From Tubiluchus corallicola (lineage: Eukaryota > Animalia > Priapulida), in the NCBI GenBank assembly GCA_030141605.1, contig JAQGDQ010000620.1:10853-74852 (forward strand): 64,000 bases of DNA. The letters run 5' to 3'. Shown here in pieces: positions 5,726-62,933 of this stretch (within the stretch, counting starts at the first letter, position 1; the number at the start of each line of letters is the position of its first letter). The notes beneath the pieces are model-generated. The model saw only the letters and a program-made list of their open reading frames with translations. It was not told the DNA's origin and did not search any database. The position numbers and the translations under genes are program-made.

Positions 5726-5905
5726 GTGCAGCGCGTGGCAATGAAGCTCGTATTTGTGCTAGCAGTTTATTGTTCAGTGTTTGAAGATTTCCGCCATGTG
5801 ATTCAATGCACTGCTGGAGTGCAGCGCATGACAATGAAGCTCGTATTTGTGCTAGCAGTTTATTGTTCAGTGTTTGAAGATTTCCGCCATGTGATTCAAT
5901 GCGCT
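5726..5905. repeat. 93-bp tandem duplication of the aconitase C-terminus, stop codon and AATAAA
   Basis: gtgcagcgc...gattcaatgc starts at 5726 and 5819; stop copies at 5774-5776 and 5867-5869. Confidence 0.93.
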
Positions 5906-8218
5906 ACCGGCACGAAACCATTTAATCTGTTGCTCATTAAACGAGTGATCAAGTTCTATGGTTTCCTCGCTTTCGTCTTCGTGTTTCAACTTGCACTGCA
6001 ATTTCTTTCCCGGCGCGAGCGAGTCTAAACCGATCAACGATATCCTATCCGAAGGTTGTATCTTGTCGTAATCTGTCGAGTTTACGAATGTGAGAGGCAG
6101 CATTCCCTGTTTCTTCAAGTTTGTTTCGTGAATTCTGGCAAAACTTTTCACGATGATGGCACGACCGCCCAGATGACGCGGTTCTAATGCAGCGTGCTCT
6201 CTGCTGCTTCCCTCCCCGTAGTTCTCATCCCCGATGACCACCCACGGCGTTCCCTGAGCTTTGTAGTGCCGGGCGGTTTCTGGAACGGACCCCCATTGAC
6301 CCGTCTGTCGATTCTTCACTTTGTTCGCTTCTCCATTCTCCGCATTTATTGCACCGATTAACAAGTTATTGGAAATATTATCCAAATGTCCTCGATACTT
6401 CAGCCAAGGCCCGGCTGCACTAATGTGATCGGTTGTGCATTTTCCTTTGGTCTTGATCAGAACAGCCATATCTGTCAGATCTTTTCCGTCCCATTTTGGG
6501 AAGCCTGCCAAAAGCTGTAATCTCTTGCTACTCGGGTCGACGTCGACGTGGACAGAAGATCTGTCCGTTGGTGGTGCCTGGTAGGTATCAACACCGGGAT
6601 CAAAACCTTTCGTGGGAAGCTCGTCCCCAAATGGAGACTCGAGTTTAAACTTTTTCATGTCGCCACCCATTAGTTCATCCCTTTCCGGATCAAAGTCTAT
6701 AGTACCAGCTATCACGAGTGCAGTAACGATTTCTGGAGAGGCTACGAACGCGTGAGTCGCAGGATTGGCATCATTGCGTCCAGTAAAGTTACGATTGTAC
6801 GATGTCACTATTGTGTTCTTCTCTCCTTTTTTGACATCTTTCCTGTCCCATTGACCGATGCACGGTCCACACGCATTAGCCAACACCGTACCACCAAACT
6901 CTGTGAAAACTTGTGTTAAGGAATCTCGTTCCATTGTGGCTCTAATCTGCTCCGACCCGGGCGTAATCGTGAAAGCGCTCTTAGCTTTCAACCCGCGTTT
7001 CATCGCTTGCTTAGCAATAGACGCGGCCCGAGTCATGTCCTCGTAACTACTGTTTGTGCAACTACCGATCAGTCCAACTTTCATTTCAAGTGGCCAATCA
7101 TTTGCCTTCGCAGTTTCTCCCAATTTATCTATTGGATGTGCCAGATCTGGAGTAAAAGGTCCGTTCACATGAGGCTTTAGTTCGCCAAGATTAATCTCTA
7201 TAACTTGGTCGTAGTCACAGTCATCGTCGGGTTTTAGCAAGTCACGATTTTCCATAGCAAGATCACCAATTAGCTGCCTCCCTGTAGCTTTGAGGTAATC
7301 GTACATTCGATGATTGAAGGGAAACACAGACGTTGTAGCACCAATTTCTGCACCCATGTTACATATTGTGCCCATTCCTGTGCATGAGATTGAATCTACC
7401 CCGGGACCAAAGTATTCTACTATTGCCCCCGTCCCACCTTTAACTGTGAGAATACCAGCAAGTTTTAATATGACGTCCTTCGGTGCTGTCCAGCCACTTA
7501 ACTTTCCTTCTAACTTAACTCCGATAACCTTCGGACACTTTAACTCCCACGGAAGATCAGCCATAACGTCGACGGCATCCGCACCACCCACACCAATGCA
7601 CAACCCGCCTAGGCCACCACCGTTTGGCGTGTGACTGTCTGTGCCAATCAGCAACACACCAGGGTATGCGTAATTTTCTAAAATAATTTGGTGTATGATT
7701 CCACTACCAGGTTTCCAGAATCCGACGCCATATTTGGCTCCAGCAGTTGATAAAAAGTTGTATACTTCGGCGTTGACGTCTTTTGCTCGCGCCAAATCCT
7801 TCTCACCGCCTACTTGAGCTTCAATAAGATGATCACAATGGATAGTTGATGGAACAGCCGCCTTATCGAGACCGCTGCTTATGAACTGTAACATTGCCAT
7901 TTGTGCAGTAGCATCTTGCATAGCAACGCGATCCGGTCGCAACAGAAGATAACTTTGACCTCTGACGATCTCTTGTGATTCTGGATGATCTATATGCCCA
8001 TAGAGAATTTTTTCAGATAAAGTTAGTGGCCTGTTTAGTCGGTTTTTGACAATATCAATCTTTTTTCTTAGGGTATCGTATGACAAAAATTTGTCTTGTT
8101 CAAATTTGCTAATAGGAACTTTTTGAGCTGCTACAACACTTGAAGCAAAATGTCGTGCTTGATACAAACGTGTGCACCAAATCCTGTGGCACATCAACCG
8201 CATGTGGACTGCCATCAT
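5867..8218 (-). CDS. ACO2: Mitochondrial aconitate hydratase, intronless CDS, about 783 aa
   Basis: Uninterrupted ORF with [25 protein letters not shown] and ACGPCIG (three Fe-S Cys), SYNRNF, CTTDHIS, GEGSSRE; Arg-rich transit peptide (ARHFASS). First ATG at 8218 (the track start 8251 is not ATG). Confidence 0.96.
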
Positions 8219-9769
8219 GTAGAGTATTTTCACAACCCTGTAGTAAAACAAAAACGGTTAAATTTAATTATAAGTTTACATTTAATTTTGTGATCCAAGG
8301 CATTAAGTCACCTGCCACCGAATTTTACTCTATATTTTAATTTCTATTTCAGTTCAACTATAATACAAAAAGACAAAAAATAATGGAAATAGACTGACTT
8401 GACTTGACGTAGATGATTGACGTTTCAAACCGGCGTTTCAAGCCCTCCACATGAAGTGCTTCATTTATTTACTACTACTAATTTACTTGACACTAGATGC
8501 TAAGTTACATAGATTTTACTGTAAAAAAACCCACGATACCGATGGCAACTTAATTGATAAAATGAAACTAAAAGCGAAAGTGAAGGTCATGCATTACGGT
8601 AATTTTATCACCGCATGAAAAGCAGTAAAAGCCGCAGAACGCCAAAGATCAGAGGTTATGGCTTGTGGCGCCATCTAACGTAGGGAAATGAAAACGCTTT
8701 TACACGTTTCGTAGGCTAACTATACGAGAGAAAGAATTGCAGGAGTAATTCAGAAAAATATTAATATGACAAGATTTAATTATTTTGGTGCATACTGCAG
8801 AAGACAGTACAAAATTATTAAGATTTTTGGTTGCTGTCTAAACACATCTTCTCTTACTCTAAGAAATAGTGAAAACCATAATGTTAAATCCGTATACGTA
8901 TGAACTATTTCAGCATGGCAGCAATTTAATTAGTTCAATATATTTTACTGTTTCATTTTCCTTAAAGAATGCAGTGAAAAGCTAATAACAATTTAAGTCA
9001 CTTATTCCGCAAAACATGTACAGTGTGTATAAGTTGTAGACTATATATTAGAGACTAGAAGTTTAAGGTTCAGCTAAAAGTTAAAATAATGTACAGTGTA
9101 AAATTGACATAATAAGATATTACAGCGTCAATAAATTAGAAAAGTAATATATAACGAAAGAAACCATTACAAAAATACAAAACCTACAGTACTTAGTGGT
9201 TTTATAATGGCTTCTCTTTTTATATTTTAGTTTTCGAATTCATCGAAACTGTAACATTTTATTATGTCAGTATTTTATTGCGTCAGTTTTACACTGAGTT
9301 AGTTTAATTTTAGCGGATGAAAGCTTTTAGTCTAAGATAAACTGTGCGGCAACAGGGCAATTCTGTGATCTTTTAAGTTTGTATAGTCCTATATTATTTC
9401 CAGTAGATCAAATTATATTAAAAAATACAGTTGCAGAATTAAGTTAAACACTTAGATTAATTGTTGTTGAACACAAACTGAGGTTATCTTATCACAATTA
9501 AAGTTTTTAGAAGTATATAAAAAGATTTTGTAAACTTCATGACAGAAATAAAAATTCTCCACAATCCAGATACTGAGTTTGCGAGTAATCTACAAAATTT
9601 AACATTACGCAAACGTTCCCTTTTTCAACACTGAGAGAATTCGTGCTAGCAACATTACTGTATTCTGCTGAGTACTGAATAGATAAAAATAATTGTATAG
9701 TACAAGACTGCGAGTAATGTGTGTTAAGTTGTATTTTAAACTAAAGATGTCAGGACGTGTTGTAACCGG

Positions 9770-9846: not shown

Positions 9847-45441
<35,595 letters not shown>

Positions 45442-53717: not shown

Positions 53718-55268
53718 TTAATAACCGTGAAAAATTTGCTCTTTTCCATCATTGTAAAAGATCGGCTTGCTTTCGAATGTCATGCGCTTCTGTTTGCACA
53801 GGTCGTCTATGTGAGCCATTTCGTTTTTCATGTTTTTCTTCCTGTCTTTCACTTTTCGGCTCAGCTCGGCGTGTAACTCTGAAGGCAAATATTGAGGACC
53901 CATTATCACCTGCGGTATATGTTTGTTTTTCGTTACCGGACCATTCGTAGGCTCGCATGCTTCGTAAACATGTATCTTGGCAGTGTAACATTCAGAATTT
54001 TTTGCCGGCTTTGTTTCGTCACATTCCTTTACGTGTTTGCTAACATCTTCTAGGCTTCTAGTTTTCGCAAGATTTTCATACGTGGGTACATGATTGTTCT
54101 TATTCTTGTTCATTTCTGAGCAATCGTCGTCCAATGTGGAAAGATTGACCATAGATTTTGCACAAGTACGTGCGCACGCACACATCTGCAGCTGATTTCT
54201 CTTTCCTGCTGTTTGGAGGTCCCAATCGGAGTGAGCTCGTGCCTCCTCGTATGCGGAGTCGCTTTCTTCATCACTTGAATCATCATTGCTAGTTGAGCAG
54301 CACTTCTCGCAGCATCGGCTCCAATCTTCATCCTCCTCTTCACTTGCGCTAGATTTCGGATCATTTAACAGTTTGGTCTGTTCTTGCCACGATTTCAAGT
54401 TTTCCAAAATGTTTCTGTACTTTAGTTCTAAATTCACCACTCTTTTCTGAAGATCCTGACCTTGTTCGTTTTGACTTTTTGGCGAGATGTTTGTACGTAC
54501 CGACTTCTTGCATATCTTCGCATCTTCATTTGAACCATTACGGGCGTGTATAAGTTCATTGAGTCTGTATTCTGTTGGGTAGTCGTGCACAAGACACTGC
54601 AGTCTTAGCTCTGGCAGCTGCATTTGTTCAAGAGCTCGTTGCCGGTTTTTATAATCTTCGGTATCCCACGCCCTGATTCTGTGCTGATGGTACGTTCTCT
54701 TGTGCCTTTTGTTAGCCACTTGCACATTATTTCTGTCATGCTGATGGATTTCTATCCTGTTATTTTGATTGGAAGACACCCCCTTGTGATCGACAGCTTC
54801 CACACGCTTTGATCTTTTATATGAAGAATGGCTGTCCGTTGCATAATCGGAAGTGCGTTCATCGTCGATGCCTGTTTCTTCTGCTTTTTCCGTTTTAAGG
54901 ACGTTGTTTGCAATCAGTTCGTTTGCTATGAAATTACTGCGCAGTTCCACCAAATGGCAGCAAGATTTGGACGGGTAAGTCGAATGCTGCAAAACTGTGT
55001 CATCCAAATTACAATCTAGTAGATTACCGATCGGTTGCGTATCGCATGCGCTAAATTTTGAATCTCCACCAACCAACAATGGAGTCGATTTAAACTTCAC
55101 GTCTCTCGTCGCGTTCTTGTATTTCGACCACTTGTTTCTTGATGGCCACTTCTGATGTTTGTAGAGCCGTTCACTCCGATCCAACACAGCAATTTCGTCT
55201 TTTGCAAATATCCCGTTGGCTATTTTGTGGTTTATCATGTTCTTGGTACAGTGGTCAGCGGAATACTC
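53718..55268 (-). CDS. Large low-complexity coding exon (516 aa); probable alternative terminal exon of the Patched-family gene
   Basis: Non-repetitive 1.5-kb open frame extends 10 codons upstream of the track's ATG to a phase-0 acceptor (ttttactaaaattctgtacag, 55269-55271), with an in-frame TAA just upstream. Confidence 0.7.
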   Translation of the reverse strand, partial: EYSADHCTKNMINHKIANGIFAKDEIAVLDRSERLYKHQKWPSRNKWSKYKNATRDVKFKSTPLLVGGDSKFSACDTQPIGNLLDCNLDDTVLQHSTYPSKSCCHLVELRSNFIANELIANNVLKTEKAEETGIDDERTSDYATDSHSSYKRSKRVEAVDHKGVSSNQNNRIEIHQHDRNNVQVANKRHKRTYHQHRIRAWDTEDYKNRQRALEQMQLPELRLQCLVHDYPTEYRLNELIHARNGSNEDAKICKKSVRTNISPKSQNEQGQDLQKRVVNLELKYRNILENLKSWQEQTKLLNDPKSSASEEEDEDWSRCCEKCCSTSNDDSSDEESDSAYEEARAHSDWDLQTAGKRNQLQMCACARTCAKSMVNLSTLDDDCSEMNKNKNNHVPTYENLAKTRSLEDVSKHVKECDETKPAKNSECYTAKIHVYEACEPTNGPVTKNKHIPQVIMGPQYLPSELHAELSRKVKDRKKNMKNEMAHIDDLCKQKRMTFESKPIFYNDGKEQIFHGY

Positions 55269-55985: not shown

Positions 55986-56378
55986 TTAAAATCTAGTGAA
56001 ATAATGATTAGTATCAGTCATGCATCCATCACCAACAGAATAGTTGTTCATTGAATCTGCAAGTATAGTGTTGTTGTTAGTCTCCTTTTTCACAATATCT
56101 GTTTTATCACTAGCGGGAAGATTAGTTTGCATGTAGTAACTGTTAGTGAAAGGTGCGTGAGATTTCACAGGCGAGGGTGGCATTCCACAAACCTCTATCC
56201 CGTTATGATCCGGTATGAAGTAAAGATTGTCTACTCCTAAGTCGTCCTTTCCCTTTGTCGGGTGAAGCATATCTTCAAGTTCATCTCTGGGATACGGAGG
56301 TGGCCCCACCCAACTGAGAAGCACTGGTAGATACAGTAGTCCGTGAAAAAGTCCAAACACCACTACAGAGAAGAACGT
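55986..56378 (-). CDS. Patched-family exon: last TM plus short tail (internal donor after 56193)
   Basis: TFFSVVVFGLFHGLLYLPVLLSWVGPPPY...HYFTRF*; CAG acceptor 56379-56381. Confidence 0.85.
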   Translation of the reverse strand, partial: TFFSVVVFGLFHGLLYLPVLLSWVGPPPYPRDELEDMLHPTKGKDDLGVDNLYFIPDHNGIEVCGMPPSPVKSHAPFTNSYYMQTNLPASDKTDIVKKETNNNTILADSMNNYSVGDGCMTDTNHYFTRF

Positions 56379-59300
56379 CTGCAACAATAAGATGAGTAAG
56401 TATTAGTTAAATCATTTCACAACTCTGTAACAGTTTAAGTGAAAATATTAAATTCAAAATTCGCTGTCTAAATTTTTGCACAGTTTAGAACTTTGAACAT
56501 TTTATTATTTTTTGAAGTCTGGATGACAAGTTTAGATGTGAATTATAGTGCATAGTAACATGTGACACTAAACTGTTCTTTGTTGTAAATCGGTACAGTA
56601 TTCGCTTCTCTGCTTTCCTAAAATTGATATTGTTCCAGTAGATAGCCTTACGGCCCGCCATCGGTGATGCGGGCAAGCGCTGTATAACGGACACTGCAGA
56701 AATTTAAAAAAAAGAAAGAACAAAACCAAAACTTAGAATTCAAAAGGGACGGCTGAGAACAACACAATAGAAAGAAAACAAAACCTGATGACAATACTTC
56801 AAACCTTACGGAATCCACGACACTCGGCAGGCAGAAAAGAGCAGTGCATTCCATGACAACCAGAAGACAACTGACGATGTCACGTGTTCGTTCTTTCCAC
56901 AGGAAACCACTGCTCAACCAATCGCAGGTAATGTTATGGGCTTCCTAGTTTGAAGTGGAGGTCATAACATTACCTGTAGGGCGGTTGGCCTGGTGCCTAT
57001 GAACAGAACTGTATAATGCACTTTCACCTGTTCAGCTCAATATTAAGATAATTGTTGTAAGTGTTGCTGTGAAGAATATTTCTGGCAGCAGTGTCGCCGT
57101 TAACGTTGCCTCTTCGTTAGTCTCTTGAAGGCATTTTGTCGACTTGTAAGCAGTTATGATGTTTGTCGCCATCTTTTTTAGGAACAGTCGTATGTATTCT
57201 ACTTTTGTGCAACTTACCTTGAAAAATTGTTGAAACGATATTGACTCTGATGTAGAAAGTAGAATGAAAGCAAGAAAAGTACTAAATCCTCCACAAAAGA
57301 CAGCAGGAGCCATATTCTTCAATGTGCCTTTCGCTCTTTCTGCAAAAATGTAAGCATTATCATATCATTATTACATACGTTTTGACTGTGTTCTTATTAA
57401 AATATATGCCAAAGAACATTGGTATGAAATTGTACCTTGTCTTGTCCCAGGTAAGACCATGAATTCGTGGCCAATGTGCACAGCATAATCAACTGCTAAA
57501 CCGACGCATAGAATAAGACAGATTGAAAGACCCATTTCCACTTTTAAACCCCAGTAATACATTGTGCCACCTATGTCAATCTGAAATGGAAAAATGAAAA
57601 CATGTACAACACAATAACAAGAAAAAGTGATGATACATTGTGCTGCCTATGTCAATCTGAAATGGAAAAATGAAAACATGTACAACACAATAACAAGAGA
57701 AAGTGATAATTCATTGTGCCACCTATGTCAATCTGAAATGGAAAAATGAAAACATGTACAACACAATAACAAGAGAAAGTGATTATACATTGTGCTGCCT
57801 ATGTCAATCTGAAATGGAAAAATGAAAACATGTACAACACAATAACAAGAGAAAGTGATTATACATTGTGCCGCCTATGTCAATCTGAAATGGAAAAATG
57901 AAAACATGTACAACACAATAACAAGAGAAAGTGATTATACATTGTGCTGCCTATGTCAATCTGAAATGGAAAAATGAAAACATGTACAACACAATAACAA
58001 GAGAAAGTGATTATACATTGTGCCACCTATGTCAATCTGAAATGGAAAAATGAAAACATGTACAACACAATAACAAGAGAAAGTGATTATACATTGTGCT
58101 GCCTATGTCAATCTGAAATGGAAAAATGAAAACATGTACAACACAATAACAAGAGAAAGTGATTATACATTGTGCCGCCTATGTCAATCTGAAATGGAAA
58201 AATGAAAACATGTACAACACAATAACAAGAGAAAGTGATTCTACATTGTGCCACCTATGTCAATCTGAAATGGAAAAATGAAAACATGTACAACACAATA
58301 ACAAGAAAAAGTGATGATACATTGTGCCACCTATGTCAATCTGAAATGGAAAAATGAAAACATTTTCAACACAATAACAAGAAAAAGTGATTATACATTG
58401 TGCCGCCTATGTCAATCTGAAATGGAAAAATAAAAACATGTACAACACAATAACAAGAGAAAGTGATTATAACAAGATAAAATGGTAGCCAGTACAATTC
58501 TGTGATTATTTTACAAATGTGTGCTTGCATAGCAAAATCGTCCGTAAGTCAGCAATTAAACTTCTCTAGTTATTCACATACCCCGAATCTGCATTTCATG
58601 AGGATTATTTTGATACCAAGTTCATCACTCTGTGTTATTTCTAAGCTGAGATAATCAATGTTGAAGTTGAGGTGCAGGCTGCTATGTTTCTATGAACTTT
58701 GCAAGAGCACACTGAAGTTATGTTTAAATCCAATAGATGACTCTTCGTGATAAAGATTTGGGCTTGGCAACTGGAAAACCCGAAGCAAAATGACAGCTAC
58801 CACGAGCTACAATCGGAGTTTGAAAATACTTTTCACAATTGCAGTACTAGTTTCTAGCCAGAGAAATGAGTAAGAAGTATGCAGTTTCTATGCAGAAAAG
58901 TGGGTAAAGGGTTATAAAATTAGATTTTTTGTATTTTTAAGAATTTTCTTGGCAATTTGATGCTGTAATATCAAATTGCAATATATTTAGCATTTGTTTT
59001 AATAAAAAAAAACAAAAAAATTGACATTAGACCAAATTTTTGTGCATTCTACTTTGAAGCGCCATAATGTAATTTTAACTATGCCAACTTATGAACGGTT
59101 TGGTTTGCAAGCAACACATATGAAAAAGAAATGCTAAACATTAGTAGATTCATACCATGGTAAGGAGCACACACGTCCACACAAGTAGACTGCATAAGAC
59201 ATCAGAGATCAACAGCATCGTCATTAAGAACACCATCGCCAATGCTAGTAAGAGATTTCTCAGCAGTTCCGGTCCAACTATCTGGTTTTGTTAAAAAGAA

Positions 59301-60355: not shown

Positions 60356-62757
60356 GGGGGAGAGAGAGAAAGGAGGGAGAGAGAGAGAGGGAGGGGGAGA
60401 GAGAGAGAAGAGAGAGGGAGAGAAGAGAGAGAGGGAGAGGGAGGGGGAGAGAAGAGAGAGATAGAGAGAGAGGGGGGAGAGACAGAGAGGGAGAGAGAGA
60501 GAGAGAGGGAGGGGGGGAGAGAGAGAGAAGAGAGAGGGAGAGAAGAGAGAGATAGAGAGACAAACATTGCGGGTGTTGTCTGTTATCGCAAAAAGGTTGC
60601 TGGCTTTGAAAAAAATTAAAATATTTAAAGTTTATCGTCGGATTTGCAACAATTTCAGTCTCGGCGAAATCTTGACGAACATTTCACAATACTTTTTAGA
60701 ATAGTGCTACGAGTTTTTTCAACATTTTGGCTACCTTTTTGCAAATCTCAGCTGTCCCGCGCTTCCTTTTGCGAATATTTCGTGAAACTGTCGTGAAATG
60801 ATAGTAATACACTCGTGCCTTCTCACAGAAGTCGTCAAACATGTCGCACGACAGTCTCGTGATTTTTGTCAGTGAAAAAGGCCCTAAATTCACACTAAAT
60901 GTGGCAACAATCGCACGAACTTCCCACGAATCATTTGTTGCACAATCCAGCCGCGGGAATTTTTTGACGATTACTGGATTTAAAAATGTTTCGACTGTCA
61001 CAAAAGAAGTTACGGCCCCGTGAAACTCTGGATTTAAAGATGTTTCAATTGTCACAAAAGAAGTTACGGCCCCGTGAAACTCTGGATTTAAAGATGTTTC
61101 AATTGTCACAAAAGAAGTTACTGCCCCGTGAAACTCTGGATTTAAAGATGTTTCAATTGTCACAAAAGAAATTACGGCCCCGTGAAACTCTGGATTTAAA
61201 GATGTTTCAATTGTCACAAAAGAAGTTACTGCCCCGTGAAACTCTGGATTTAAAAATGTTTCAATTGTCACAAAAGAAGTTACGGCCCCGTGAAACTCTG
61301 GATTTAAAGATGTTTCAATTGTCACAAAAGAAGTTACGGCCCCGTGAAACTCTGGATTTAAAGATGTTTCAATTGTCACAAAAGAAGTTACTGCCCCGTG
61401 AAACTCTGGATTTAAAGATGTTTCAATTGTCACAAAAGAAGTTACTGCCCCGTGAAACTCTGGATTTAAAGATGTTTCGATTGTCACAAAAGAAGTTACG
61501 GCCCCGTGAAACTCTGGATTTAAAGATGTTTCAATTGTCACAAAAGAAGTTACGGCCCCGTGAAACTCTGGATTTAAAGATGTTTCAATTGTCACAAAAG
61601 AAATTACGGCCCCGTGAAACTCTGGATTTAAAGATGTTTCAATTGCCACAAAAGAAGTTACGGCCCCGTGGAACTCTGGATTTAAAGATATTTCGATTGT
61701 CACAAAAGAAGTTACGGCCCCGTGAAACTCTGGATTTAAAGATGTTTCAATTGTCACAAAAGAAATTACGGCCCTGTGAAACTCTGGATTTACAAGCTCT
61801 GCTAAAGTAACACATGACATCCATCCTTTTCTTGAAAAACTGCATTTTTACATCTAAGCTGTTCACGACAATTTACTTTGCATGCAGAGTTACAAATGTA
61901 TCTTCATACAAACATGCTAGCAGTTATAAGCAAGCTACAAAAGCAAAACATGGTTGTCATATTTGCAGCTGCATTACGGAAAGAGTCACACAATGGAAAA
62001 GCTAAATTCTATCCATAAGCTCAGCTTGTCCGAAGCCAGCAATCAAGCAACATTGCATTTCCTCCAGAAGCAGCAACAGTGGAAATCTTTATAAGCTTTC
62101 TTCATCATTCAGATAGTTAATATGCAAGAGTCGCGCAATGGAAAAGCTAAATTCTATTCTCATGCTCAGCTTATCCAAAGCCAGCAAGCAAGCAACATTG
62201 CATTTCCTCCAGAAGCAGCAACAGTGGAAATCTTTATAAACTTTCTTCATCATTCAGATAGTTAATATGCAAGAGTCGCGCAATGGAAGAGCTAAATTCT
62301 ATTCTCGTGCTCAGCTTGACCAAAGCCAGCAAGCAAGCAACATTGCATTTCCTCCAGAAGCAGCAACAGCGGAAATCTTTGTAAACTTACTTCATCATTC
62401 AGATAGTTAATGTACATTTCATTATAGATGAATGCGTATTCGAAGTCTTGTTCCGCAGAAAGATCACGCATTGCGTACAAACACTCTACTTCATCGTCCA
62501 ATGAGTTGAGCGCTATGTGACTAAATGTTATCCTGCTGGACTGGAACATATCATAATAAACAGTTAAAGTAAACACGTTCAACAAATAAACAAAAACAAA
62601 GACTTACGGCATTGTTGAGATAAGTGAGATATAAATCGCTGTAGAAGAAGACGTAGTTAAAGTCCTGCTGATTGGCTAGATCTCGCATGTCGTACAAACA
62701 CTGTACTTCCTCTTCTAATGTGACAAGTCTGATATGTTTGAACGTGATTCTAGATGT
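55986..62757 (-). CDS. Patched/NPC1-family (PTCHD3-like, RND fold) protein, 3' part; upstream exons outside the window
   Basis: Exons join in frame and encode the end of the second luminal loop plus the last TM helices, with GLAVDYAVHI (GxxxD), GGFSTFLA and FGLFHGLLYLPVLLS signatures. Confidence 0.88.
57218..57339 (-). CDS. Patched-family exon
   Basis: (E)RAKGTLKNMAPAVFCGGFSTFLAFILLSTSESISFQQFFK; CAG/GTAAGT. Confidence 0.9.
57436..57580 (-). CDS. Patched-family exon (GxxxD helix)
   Basis: IDIGGTMYYWGLKVEMGLSICLILCVGLAVDYAVHIGHEFMVLPGTRQ; CAG/GTACAA. Confidence 0.9.
57557..58471. repeat. 76-bp x12 tandem repeat copying a 3' splice site and exon start
   Basis: ctgaaatgg at 57581 + 76n up to 58417. 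Confidence 0.96.
58517..59119. mobile_element. ~600-bp non-autonomous DNA element with imperfect TIRs
   Basis: atgtgtgcttgcatagcaaaatcgtccgtaagt versus acttatgaacggttttggtttgcaagcaacacat; related ends at 10052 and 36765. Confidence 0.7.
59156..59281 (-). CDS. Patched-family exon (two TM helices)
   Basis: IVGPELLRNLLLALAMVFLMTMLLISDVLCSLLVWTCVLLTM; CAG/GTATGA; 126 nt, phase 0-0. Confidence 0.9.
59561..59606 (-). ncRNA. Minimal type I hammerhead ribozyme motif in a Penelope-like remnant (about 59500-59850)
   Basis: Minus strand: CCA CTGATGA T GACAG cagcagc CTGTC GAAAC GTT TGG; intact core, 5-bp stem II, loopless palindromic stem III, CCA/TGG stem I. Confidence 0.68.
60309..60561. repeat. (GA)n-rich polypurine tract
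   Basis: Directly visible. Confidence 0.95.
60975..61792. repeat. 54-bp minisatellite, about 15 copies
   Basis: Unit ctggatttaaagatgtttcaattgtcacaaaagaagttacggccccgtgaaact. Confidence 0.96.
61981..62411. repeat. 145-bp x3 tandem repeat overlapping the donor end of exon 62391-62540
   Basis: caatggaa at 61991, 62136, 62281; ttcatcattcagatagttaat at 62101, 62246, 62391. Confidence 0.93.
62391..62540 (-). CDS. Patched-family exon variant A (candidate mutually exclusive exon)
   Basis: SSRITFSHIALNSLDDEVECLYAMRDLSAEQDFEYAFIYNEMYINYLNDE; 150 nt; CAG/GTAAGT. Confidence 0.88.
62608..62757 (-). CDS. Patched-family exon variant B (candidate mutually exclusive exon)
   Basis: TSRITFKHIRLVTLEEEVQCLYDMRDLANQQDFNYVFFYSDLYLTYLNNA; 150 nt; CAG/GTAAGT; absent from the ORF track. 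Confidence 0.88.
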
Positions 62758-62933
62758 CTGAAATTGTTAGAGTCAAAAAAATATTCGTTTTACGAAAGAT
62801 CTCAATTTTGCAAACTAAAATGAGGAAAACCAGAACACCGAATTCAGGACGGTATTGTGTTGCATCAGATTTACATAATACTTCTATAATAAACTAGGTA
62901 ATGATTGATGTACAAAACTGGGGGTGCACTGTA

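What the first reader, a model, noticed from the sequence alone, without database searches (positions are those of the whole stretch)
62391..62757. Tandem homologous 150-nt exons: candidate mutually exclusive splicing in the luminal loop of a Patched/NPC1-family protein
Seen: exons B (62608-62757) and A (62391-62540) are each exactly 150 nt, phase 0-0, bounded by CAG and GTAAGT, stop-free and 28/50 aa identical without gaps, with many synonymous and conservative changes. They are separated by only 67 nt, with a branch-like ctttaac about 44 nt from B's donor. Known: equal-length homologous neighbours and a short donor-to-branch distance are hallmarks of mutually exclusive exons; this segment is the end of the second extracellular loop, part of the sterol/ligand-handling region in this family. 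A is clearly more acidic than B. Inference: an old, selected switch of the ectodomain, giving up to four isoforms when combined with the two tails. I know of no description of this for the family, and more variants could lie upstream.
Basis: partly seen in the sequence, partly recalled or inferred. Interest (0 to 1): 0.8.

Follow-up and report, generated by a model that had tools for sequence, protein, structure and literature searches.

The report
Swappable neck exon in NPC1-like transporter
An invertebrate gene for a Patched/NPC1-type lipid transporter carries two old, intact copies of one exon, encoding the stretch that in human relatives lines the neck of the sterol tunnel; the copies are likely spliced in one at a time and would give two versions of the transporter, but no RNA was found to confirm it.

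Summary
Exons B (62608-62757) and A (62391-62540), minus strand, are each 150 nt, bounded by CAG and GTAAGT, 28/50 aa identical and 67 nt apart. Synonymous sites are saturated (pS 0.95, pN 0.25). Each copy alone fills a slot that 264 of 268 long homologues carry once and none twice. The slot is the last strand-helix-strand of the second luminal domain plus the neck helix (NPC1L1 1046-1106). A second DNA haplotype keeps both exons open (3 of 4 changes synonymous, no indels). The copies share eight residues that are rare in the family, and no isoform swap was seen in 24 relative clusters, so the duplication looks lineage-specific. Mutually exclusive splicing is the best reading (about 0.72), but it rests on inference: no RNA covering these exons was available. 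The 44-nt donor-to-branch distance is below the mammalian steric limit but not below the nematode one, so it does not prove exclusion. A is more acidic (net -9 versus -3), and 7 of 12 neck positions differ. My searches found no such exon pair described for this family, but the mechanism is well known and appears common in this genome.

The parts
62608..62757 (-). Exon B, 150 nt, phase 0-0; 50 aa; closer to the family profile (36.5 bits)
62541..62607 (-). 67-nt intron between B and A; U/G-rich 5' half (6 TGTT), branch-like ctttaac with its A at 62564; no change seen in the second haplotype
62391..62540 (-). Exon A, 150 nt, phase 0-0; 50 aa; more acidic; family profile 28.4 bits
62311..62390 (-). 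Cluster of 6 YGCY motifs just after A's donor (candidate muscleblind-type enhancer; lead only)
   Evidence: PMC2853123 passage
61981..62411 (.). 145-bp tandem repeat x3 that copies the last codons of exon A, its donor and the YGCY cluster; the two extra donors read GA instead of GT
59156..59281 (-). Next common exon, first transmembrane helices after the luminal domain (phase 0-0)
57436..57580 (-). Common transmembrane exon (phase 0-1)
57218..57339 (-). Common transmembrane exon (phase 1-0), after a 96-nt intron
55986..56378 (-). Last transmembrane helix and short tail with stop; possible internal donor at 56192
53718..55268 (-). Open frame of about 516 codons after an AG, in phase with the internal donor: candidate long alternative tail; no Pfam or homologue match

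Best explanation
A Patched/NPC1-like transporter gene carries two tandem, intact, long-diverged copies of one exon that are likely spliced in mutually exclusively, which would give two proteins differing only in the last strand-helix-strand of the second luminal domain and the neck helix that, by homology to NPC1L1, is predicted to line the lipid tunnel where it meets the membrane. Shown: the two exons, their splice sites, their divergence pattern, and that the family has one such unit per protein. Inferred: (1) the spliceosome picks A or B, helped by the short 67-nt intron and probably by splicing factors, with U/G-rich motifs after B and YGCY motifs after A as candidates; (2) both isoforms fold alike, since A/B identity concentrates in family-conserved columns; (3) the isoforms differ in surface charge and neck lining, which would tune cargo passage, pH response or partner binding rather than switch the protein on or off.
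For: One slot: in alignment A1 either exon fills the segment end to end with no room for the other. 264 of 268 homologues of 350 aa or more give exactly one hit to the slot HMM, 4 give none and none gives two (the set includes isoforms and close orthologues). In the AlphaFold model of homologue P0197 (pLDDT 89.9) the slot 620-672 is strand 617-627, helix 633-648, strand 657-661 and the start of helix 665-697, which runs into the membrane, so a second unit would have to be inserted between the domain core and the membrane helix. The model matches NPC1L1/NPC1 (7n4x E 5.7e-43, TM 0.81). Both copies are under selection: pS 0.95 versus pN 0.25; identical positions fall in lower-entropy family columns (2.01 vs 2.70 bits, p=0.003). 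In DNA run X5, 3 of 4 exon differences are synonymous (2 of 2 in B, 1 of 2 in A), with no indels or stops, while 168 nt of upstream intron show 4 substitutions and 2 indels (p 0.02-0.05). Both donors are full GTAAGT. The neck positions aligned to NPC1L1 F1101/Y1102 (ezetimibe contacts; PMC8284890 passage; alignment) are T/Y in B and N/Y in A; 7 of 12 neck positions differ.
Against: No transcript evidence was obtained. Because both exons are 3n, double inclusion or double skipping keeps the frame, so nonsense-mediated decay cannot enforce exclusion. 67 nt is above the ~40-nt minimal intron of C. elegans (PMC4165533 passage), and this organism's own limit was not measured. No competing RNA pairing beyond shuffles was found. 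No swap was seen in 24 clusters of relatives, so there is no outside confirmation. Many A/B differences are conservative (E/D, L/I, L/M), so the functional difference may be small.
Confidence: 0.72

Rival explanations
1. Only one copy (more likely B, closer to the family profile) is used at meaningful levels; the other is a rarely included or recently silenced spare.
For: A scores lower against the family profile (28.4 vs 36.5 bits) and carries the only non-synonymous polymorphism (S7N). Its donor region was caught in a recent triplication. Inclusion levels were not measured.
Against: A keeps its frame, length and both splice sites despite saturated synonymous divergence. A copy silent for that long would be expected to carry stops or indels (inference). 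One of its two polymorphisms is synonymous and none disrupts the frame.
Confidence: 0.14
2. Both exons are spliced together constitutively (or as independent cassettes), giving a protein with a duplicated 50-residue unit.
For: The frame is kept; the 67-nt intron has GT-AG ends and a branch candidate 23 nt from the acceptor; introns this short are spliced in some invertebrates (PMC4165533 passage).
Against: 0 of 268 long homologues carry two units. The unit supplies two core strands and the helix that leads into the membrane. Both copies keep the same core-facing residues, as expected if each must fill the same slot.
Confidence: 0.1
3. The pair is an assembly artefact or two haplotypes placed in tandem.
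For: The neighbourhood is rich in tandem repeats. No single X5 contig spans both exons fully, and the contig over the intron reaches only 22 nt into B. X5 may be the sample the window came from.
Against: The copies are only 61% identical in DNA with saturated third positions, whereas the X5 haplotype differs by 4 sites across the covered parts of both exons. X5 contigs cover both exons, and one runs from A through the whole intron.
Confidence: 0.02

Closest known systems
Homologous mutually exclusive exons from tandem exon duplication (human catalogue PMC5740500; C. elegans set PMC4165533, e.g. the 3n clusters of mrp-1, bet-2, let-2)
   Same: Adjacent, equal-length, same-phase homologous exons encoding one structural slot, with a short intervening intron; 56% aa identity is within the range of the C. 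elegans table.
   Different: Here exclusion is not shown by RNA, and the intron (67 nt) is longer than the five sterically blocked C. elegans cases (<40 nt). NPC1 and PTCH genes do not appear in the held human supplements searched.
OGDH exons 4a/4b (PMC7969005, passages)
   Same: An exon pair in which a donor-to-branch distance under ~50 nt enforces exclusion.
   Different: OGDH uses mapped distant branch points in a vertebrate intron. Here the branch is only predicted and the whole intron is short.
Human NPC1L1 and NPC1 (PDB 7n4x, 7dfw, 6w5r)
   Same: Same fold for a homologue model (TM 0.79-0.82). The exon matches NPC1L1 1046-1106 and NPC1 1035-1092, including neck helix 9 and the position of NPC1 I1061 (L in both copies).
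   Different: About 22% identity only. The invertebrate clade is ~900-1000 aa, and the model covers only ~0.6 of full-length NPC1L1 by TM-score, consistent with no N-terminal sterol-binding domain. The cargo is untested.
Invertebrate 'patched domain-containing protein 3-like / NPC1-like' clade (cnidarians, molluscs, brachiopod, crustaceans, crinoids, hemichordates, amphioxus; database names)
   Same: Roughly 50-65% identity in the transmembrane exons for the best hits, and the same exon borders for the slot (P0163).
   Different: Single-copy slot in all examined. The window's copies replace the family's E-T-N-K neck ending with L-N-N-A or L-N-D-E and share 8 residues found in under 5% of 140 homologue slots.

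Membership tests
Homologous mutually exclusive exon pair | Adjacent exons, similar length, same phase, homologous sequence, canonical splice sites | tested here: met
Homologous mutually exclusive exon pair | Each exon encodes the same single structural slot of the protein | tested here: met
   264 of 268 homologues have one unit, none two
Homologous mutually exclusive exon pair | Both exons maintained by selection | tested here: met
   the polymorphism part rests on only 4 sites
Homologous mutually exclusive exon pair | Junction reads from each exon bridging the other, and none joining the two | tested here: inconclusive
   no run on record as RNA; X1-X4 laid no contig; X5 behaves as DNA
Homologous mutually exclusive exon pair | A mechanism enforcing exclusion (steric, frame/NMD, competing RNA structure, U2/U12 mismatch) | tested here: inconclusive
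   Frame/NMD not available (3n); both donors GTAAGT; no significant pairing; steric possible at 44 nt but organism-dependent
Patched/NPC1 (sterol-sensing-domain, RND) family | C-terminal transmembrane repeat homologous to NPC1/PTCH1 | tested here: met
   the profile of alignment A1 (6 window exons plus 3 homologues) hits NPC1 at 4e-39 and PTCH1 at 3e-32. Single window exons gave no Pfam hit.
Patched/NPC1 (sterol-sensing-domain, RND) family | Sterol-sensing domain in the N-terminal half | not testable with these tools
   Lies beyond the window end and no genome is held; present in homologue P0197
NPC1 proper | N-terminal sterol-binding domain and lysosomal cholesterol export | not testable with these tools
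   The 5' part of the gene is outside the window; the closest homologues are ~900-1000 aa and appear to lack the domain
Patched proper (Hedgehog receptor) | Orthology to PTCH1 and Hedgehog binding | not tested
   No family tree with PTCH1 was built; the nearest hits are PTCHD3-like/NPC1-like database entries

The most novel reading that the evidence does not exclude
One gene makes two Patched/NPC1-type transporters with different tunnel necks, chosen by tissue (a muscleblind-type switch favouring the acidic exon A), so that splicing sets lipid specificity or pH/compartment preference. It would be the first splice-level tuning of the sterol tunnel in the sterol-sensing RND family and a natural experiment on how the neck helix gates cargo.
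Probability: 0.2. Interest if true: 0.7.

Novelty: new member of a known kind. Interest (0 to 1): 0.42.

Why it matters
The neck of the Patched/NPC1 tunnel is where ezetimibe binds NPC1L1 (PMC8284890, passages) and where inhibitors bind Plasmodium NCR1 (bioRxiv 10.1101/2025.11.11.687791, passages), and how it selects cargo is open. Two selected versions of this segment in an otherwise identical protein would be a clean matched pair for transport assays. The weight is limited: the splicing mechanism is well known, the switch seems confined to one lineage, I found no assay of this clade's cargo, and earlier unreviewed notes suggest that this genome has many such exon pairs.

Tried and rejected
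RNA: no RNA holder was listed. X1-X4 (5% word share, RNA only guessed) laid 0 contigs on 62270-62900; this is no evidence either way, and where their shared words lie was not determined. X5 was laid only on 62270-62925, so junctions to 59281 were not examined. No whole genome is held, so the upstream exon, further copies beyond 64000 and the organism's intron-length distribution could not be read. Word-index searches with exon B and with the 57437-57580 exon found nothing; ESM Atlas gave no usable hit for B; Pfam missed the single exons. Isoform swap in relatives: 24 clusters were examined (14, 10; members under 300 aa dropped; at most 15 members listed per cluster; part of the divergence table was cut). 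None showed an alternative homologous slot; differences lay mostly in the tails and N-termini. One amphioxus model lacks the slot (P0163), one is garbled there (P0157), and the Glandiceps trio differ by a few residues and look like paralogues. No protein named as priapulid was among the 120 listed of 709 hits. Docking/selector RNA pairing: best duplexes were no better than shuffles in 4 of 4 region pairs (41-56 of 60 shuffles as good). Rbfox-type GCATG motifs after A were not enriched convincingly. The lack of change in the 67-nt intron in X5 is not significant (p about 0.09). Spliced A and B isoforms were not folded; only a homologue was. Literature: (search listings and abstract starts only) showed no paper on such exons in Patched/NPC1-family genes. 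Supplements of PMC8373072 (terms NPC1, PTCH, DISP1, SCAP) and PMC5740500 (NPC1, PTCH, DISP1) had no hit while FGFR2 was found. These lists are human only, held files may be cut, and bioRxiv supplements and subscription papers could not be seen.

Full report
Observation. The sequence is as described. On the minus strand, exon B (62608-62757) and exon A (62391-62540) are each 150 nt, open in frame, preceded by CAG and followed by GTAAGT, and 67 nt apart. They share 28 of 50 residues without gaps (0 of 100,000 shuffles reach this) and 92 of 150 nt. Identity by codon position is 36, 40 and 16 of 50; pS is 0.95 (saturated) and pN 0.25. This is the pattern of an old duplication in which both copies stayed coding. 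A has net charge -9 and B -3. tblastn and a family HMM found no third copy in the window, but the window ends 1.24 kb upstream of B and no genome is held.

The gene. Four more exons follow (59156-59281, 57436-57580, 57218-57339, 55986-56378). The 57436-57580 exon finds 464 cluster representatives at E<=0.001. Named relatives are 'patched domain-containing protein 3-like' or 'NPC1-like' proteins of cnidarians, molluscs, a brachiopod, crustaceans, crinoids, hemichordates and amphioxus. A profile of the window exons plus three homologues hits human NPC1 at 4e-39, NPC1L1 at 2e-35 and PTCH1 at 3e-32. The N-terminal half, with the sterol-sensing domain, is outside the window. Earlier unreviewed notes call the organism a likely priapulid worm; I did not test this.

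One slot, two fillers. In the alignment, A and B each fill, end to end, the segment just before the first transmembrane exon. Among 149 long homologues this segment was 49-61 residues in 145, absent in 3 and a low-complexity stretch in 1. With the larger set, 264 of 268 proteins give exactly one hit to the slot HMM and none gives two (the set includes isoforms and close orthologues). An amphioxus model lacks exactly this segment, which fits the same exon borders in both genes. In an AlphaFold model of the crinoid homologue P0197 (pLDDT 89.9) the slot is strand, helix, strand and the start of the helix that enters the membrane, and the model matches NPC1L1 and NPC1 (TM about 0.8). By my count on the alignments, the slot equals NPC1 1035-1092 and NPC1L1 1046-1106. 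It includes the position of the common NPC1 disease variant I1061T (PMC6838179, passages; L in both copies) and 'neck helix 9', which connects the domain to the membrane and lines the central cavity; NPC1L1 F1101 and Y1102 there contact ezetimibe (PMC8284890, passages). Inserting both units would put an extra 50 residues between the domain core and the membrane, so I infer that functional proteins carry one.

Both copies look alive. Positions identical between A and B fall in more conserved family columns (mean entropy 2.01 vs 2.70 bits, p=0.003, 140 slots), and both score against the family profile (B 36.5, A 28.4 bits). Run X5 reads through the introns unspliced, so it behaves as DNA. It shows another haplotype with 4 exon differences, 3 synonymous and one S7N in A, and no indels, against 4 substitutions and 2 indels in 168 nt of upstream intron (p 0.02-0.05 for the synonymous excess). 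This is a small sample, and X5 may not be independent of the assembly.

Age and spread. A and B are sisters in a tree of 142 slots (support 0.94) and share 8 residues found in under 5% of homologues; the best homologue matches only 20-21 of 50. No alternative slot was seen in 24 clusters of database isoforms. The duplication therefore post-dates the split from all sampled lineages, while being old enough to saturate synonymous sites.

How exclusion could work. Both exons are 3n, so frame and nonsense-mediated decay cannot enforce it. The best-placed branch candidate is 44 nt from B's donor, below the ~50-nt steric threshold used for human genes (PMC5740500 and PMC7969005, passages). C. elegans, however, excises introns down to ~40 nt (PMC4165533, passage), so the argument depends on this organism's limit, which I could not measure; the only other short intron seen in the gene is 96 nt. 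No competing RNA pairing was found. Two motif leads emerged: 6 YGCY in the 80 nt after A (reached by 1 of 799 windows) and 6 TGTT in the 67-nt intron (0 of 955) (20 motif-region tests were run). YGCY clusters downstream of an exon promote inclusion through MBNL1 in mammals (PMC2853123, passages). That U/G-rich tracts bind CELF or TIA-type factors is recalled, not tested.

What differs. 22 of 50 residues differ: 2 of 8 in the first strand, 3 of 5 in the loop, 6 of 16 in the helix, 1 of 4 in the next loop, 3 of 5 in the second strand and 7 of 12 in the neck segment, where A is -3 and B -1. The position aligned to NPC1L1 F1101 is T in B and N in A. Many changes are conservative, so fine-tuning of surface charge and neck lining is more likely than a change of fold. 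Whether it alters cargo, pH response or partners is inference.

RNA. None was obtained: no listed run is on record as RNA, and four guessed RNA runs laid nothing on the exons. This is no evidence either way, and it is the main gap.

Novelty. Tandem-duplicated mutually exclusive exons are a well-described class. Five literature searches (listings only) and two human supplements showed no case in Patched/NPC1-family genes, within the limits of the library. Earlier unreviewed notes on this genome match 'mutually exclusive exon' in 24 of 33 cases, so this is probably one of many in an exon-swapping lineage. PMC9013439 was seen as abstract only and not used.

Verdict.

Noticed in passing
window 61981-62411: A 145-bp tandem repeat (x3) copies the end of exon A with its donor; in both extra copies GT has become GA, so no decoy donor remains. 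X5 shows high depth and several variants here, suggesting more or variable copies.
   Followed up: partly
window 57557-58471: A 76-bp tandem repeat (x12) copies the acceptor and first ~20 nt of the 57436-57580 exon, leaving about eleven intact upstream TTTCAG acceptors; how the last one is chosen is unexplained.
   Followed up: no
window 56192 and 53718-55268 (-): A possible internal donor (GAG/GTTTGT) in the last exon is in phase with a ~516-codon open frame, a candidate long alternative cytoplasmic tail with an acidic, serine-rich patch; no Pfam or homologue match. Relatives' database isoforms often differ in the tail.
   Followed up: partly
window 5870-8257 (-): An intronless full-length aconitase reading frame (Pfam PF00330 and PF00694) in an otherwise intron-rich genome; possibly a retrocopy.
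   Followed up: partly
exons A and B, last four residues: Both copies replace the family's strongly conserved E-T (83-84% of 140 homologue slots) in the neck helix with L-N, and gain a Cys and a Tyr in the helix, so this protein's neck was already unusual before the duplication.
   Followed up: no
window 60974-61792; 38024-39322: A 54-bp tandem array (x15) in the intron after A, and a short-period array near 38-39 kb, both giving long spurious open frames.
   Followed up: no
P0163, P0008, P0042: Three database gene models (amphioxus, Elysia and one not looked up) lack the slot entirely; real skipping or prediction errors.
   Followed up: no
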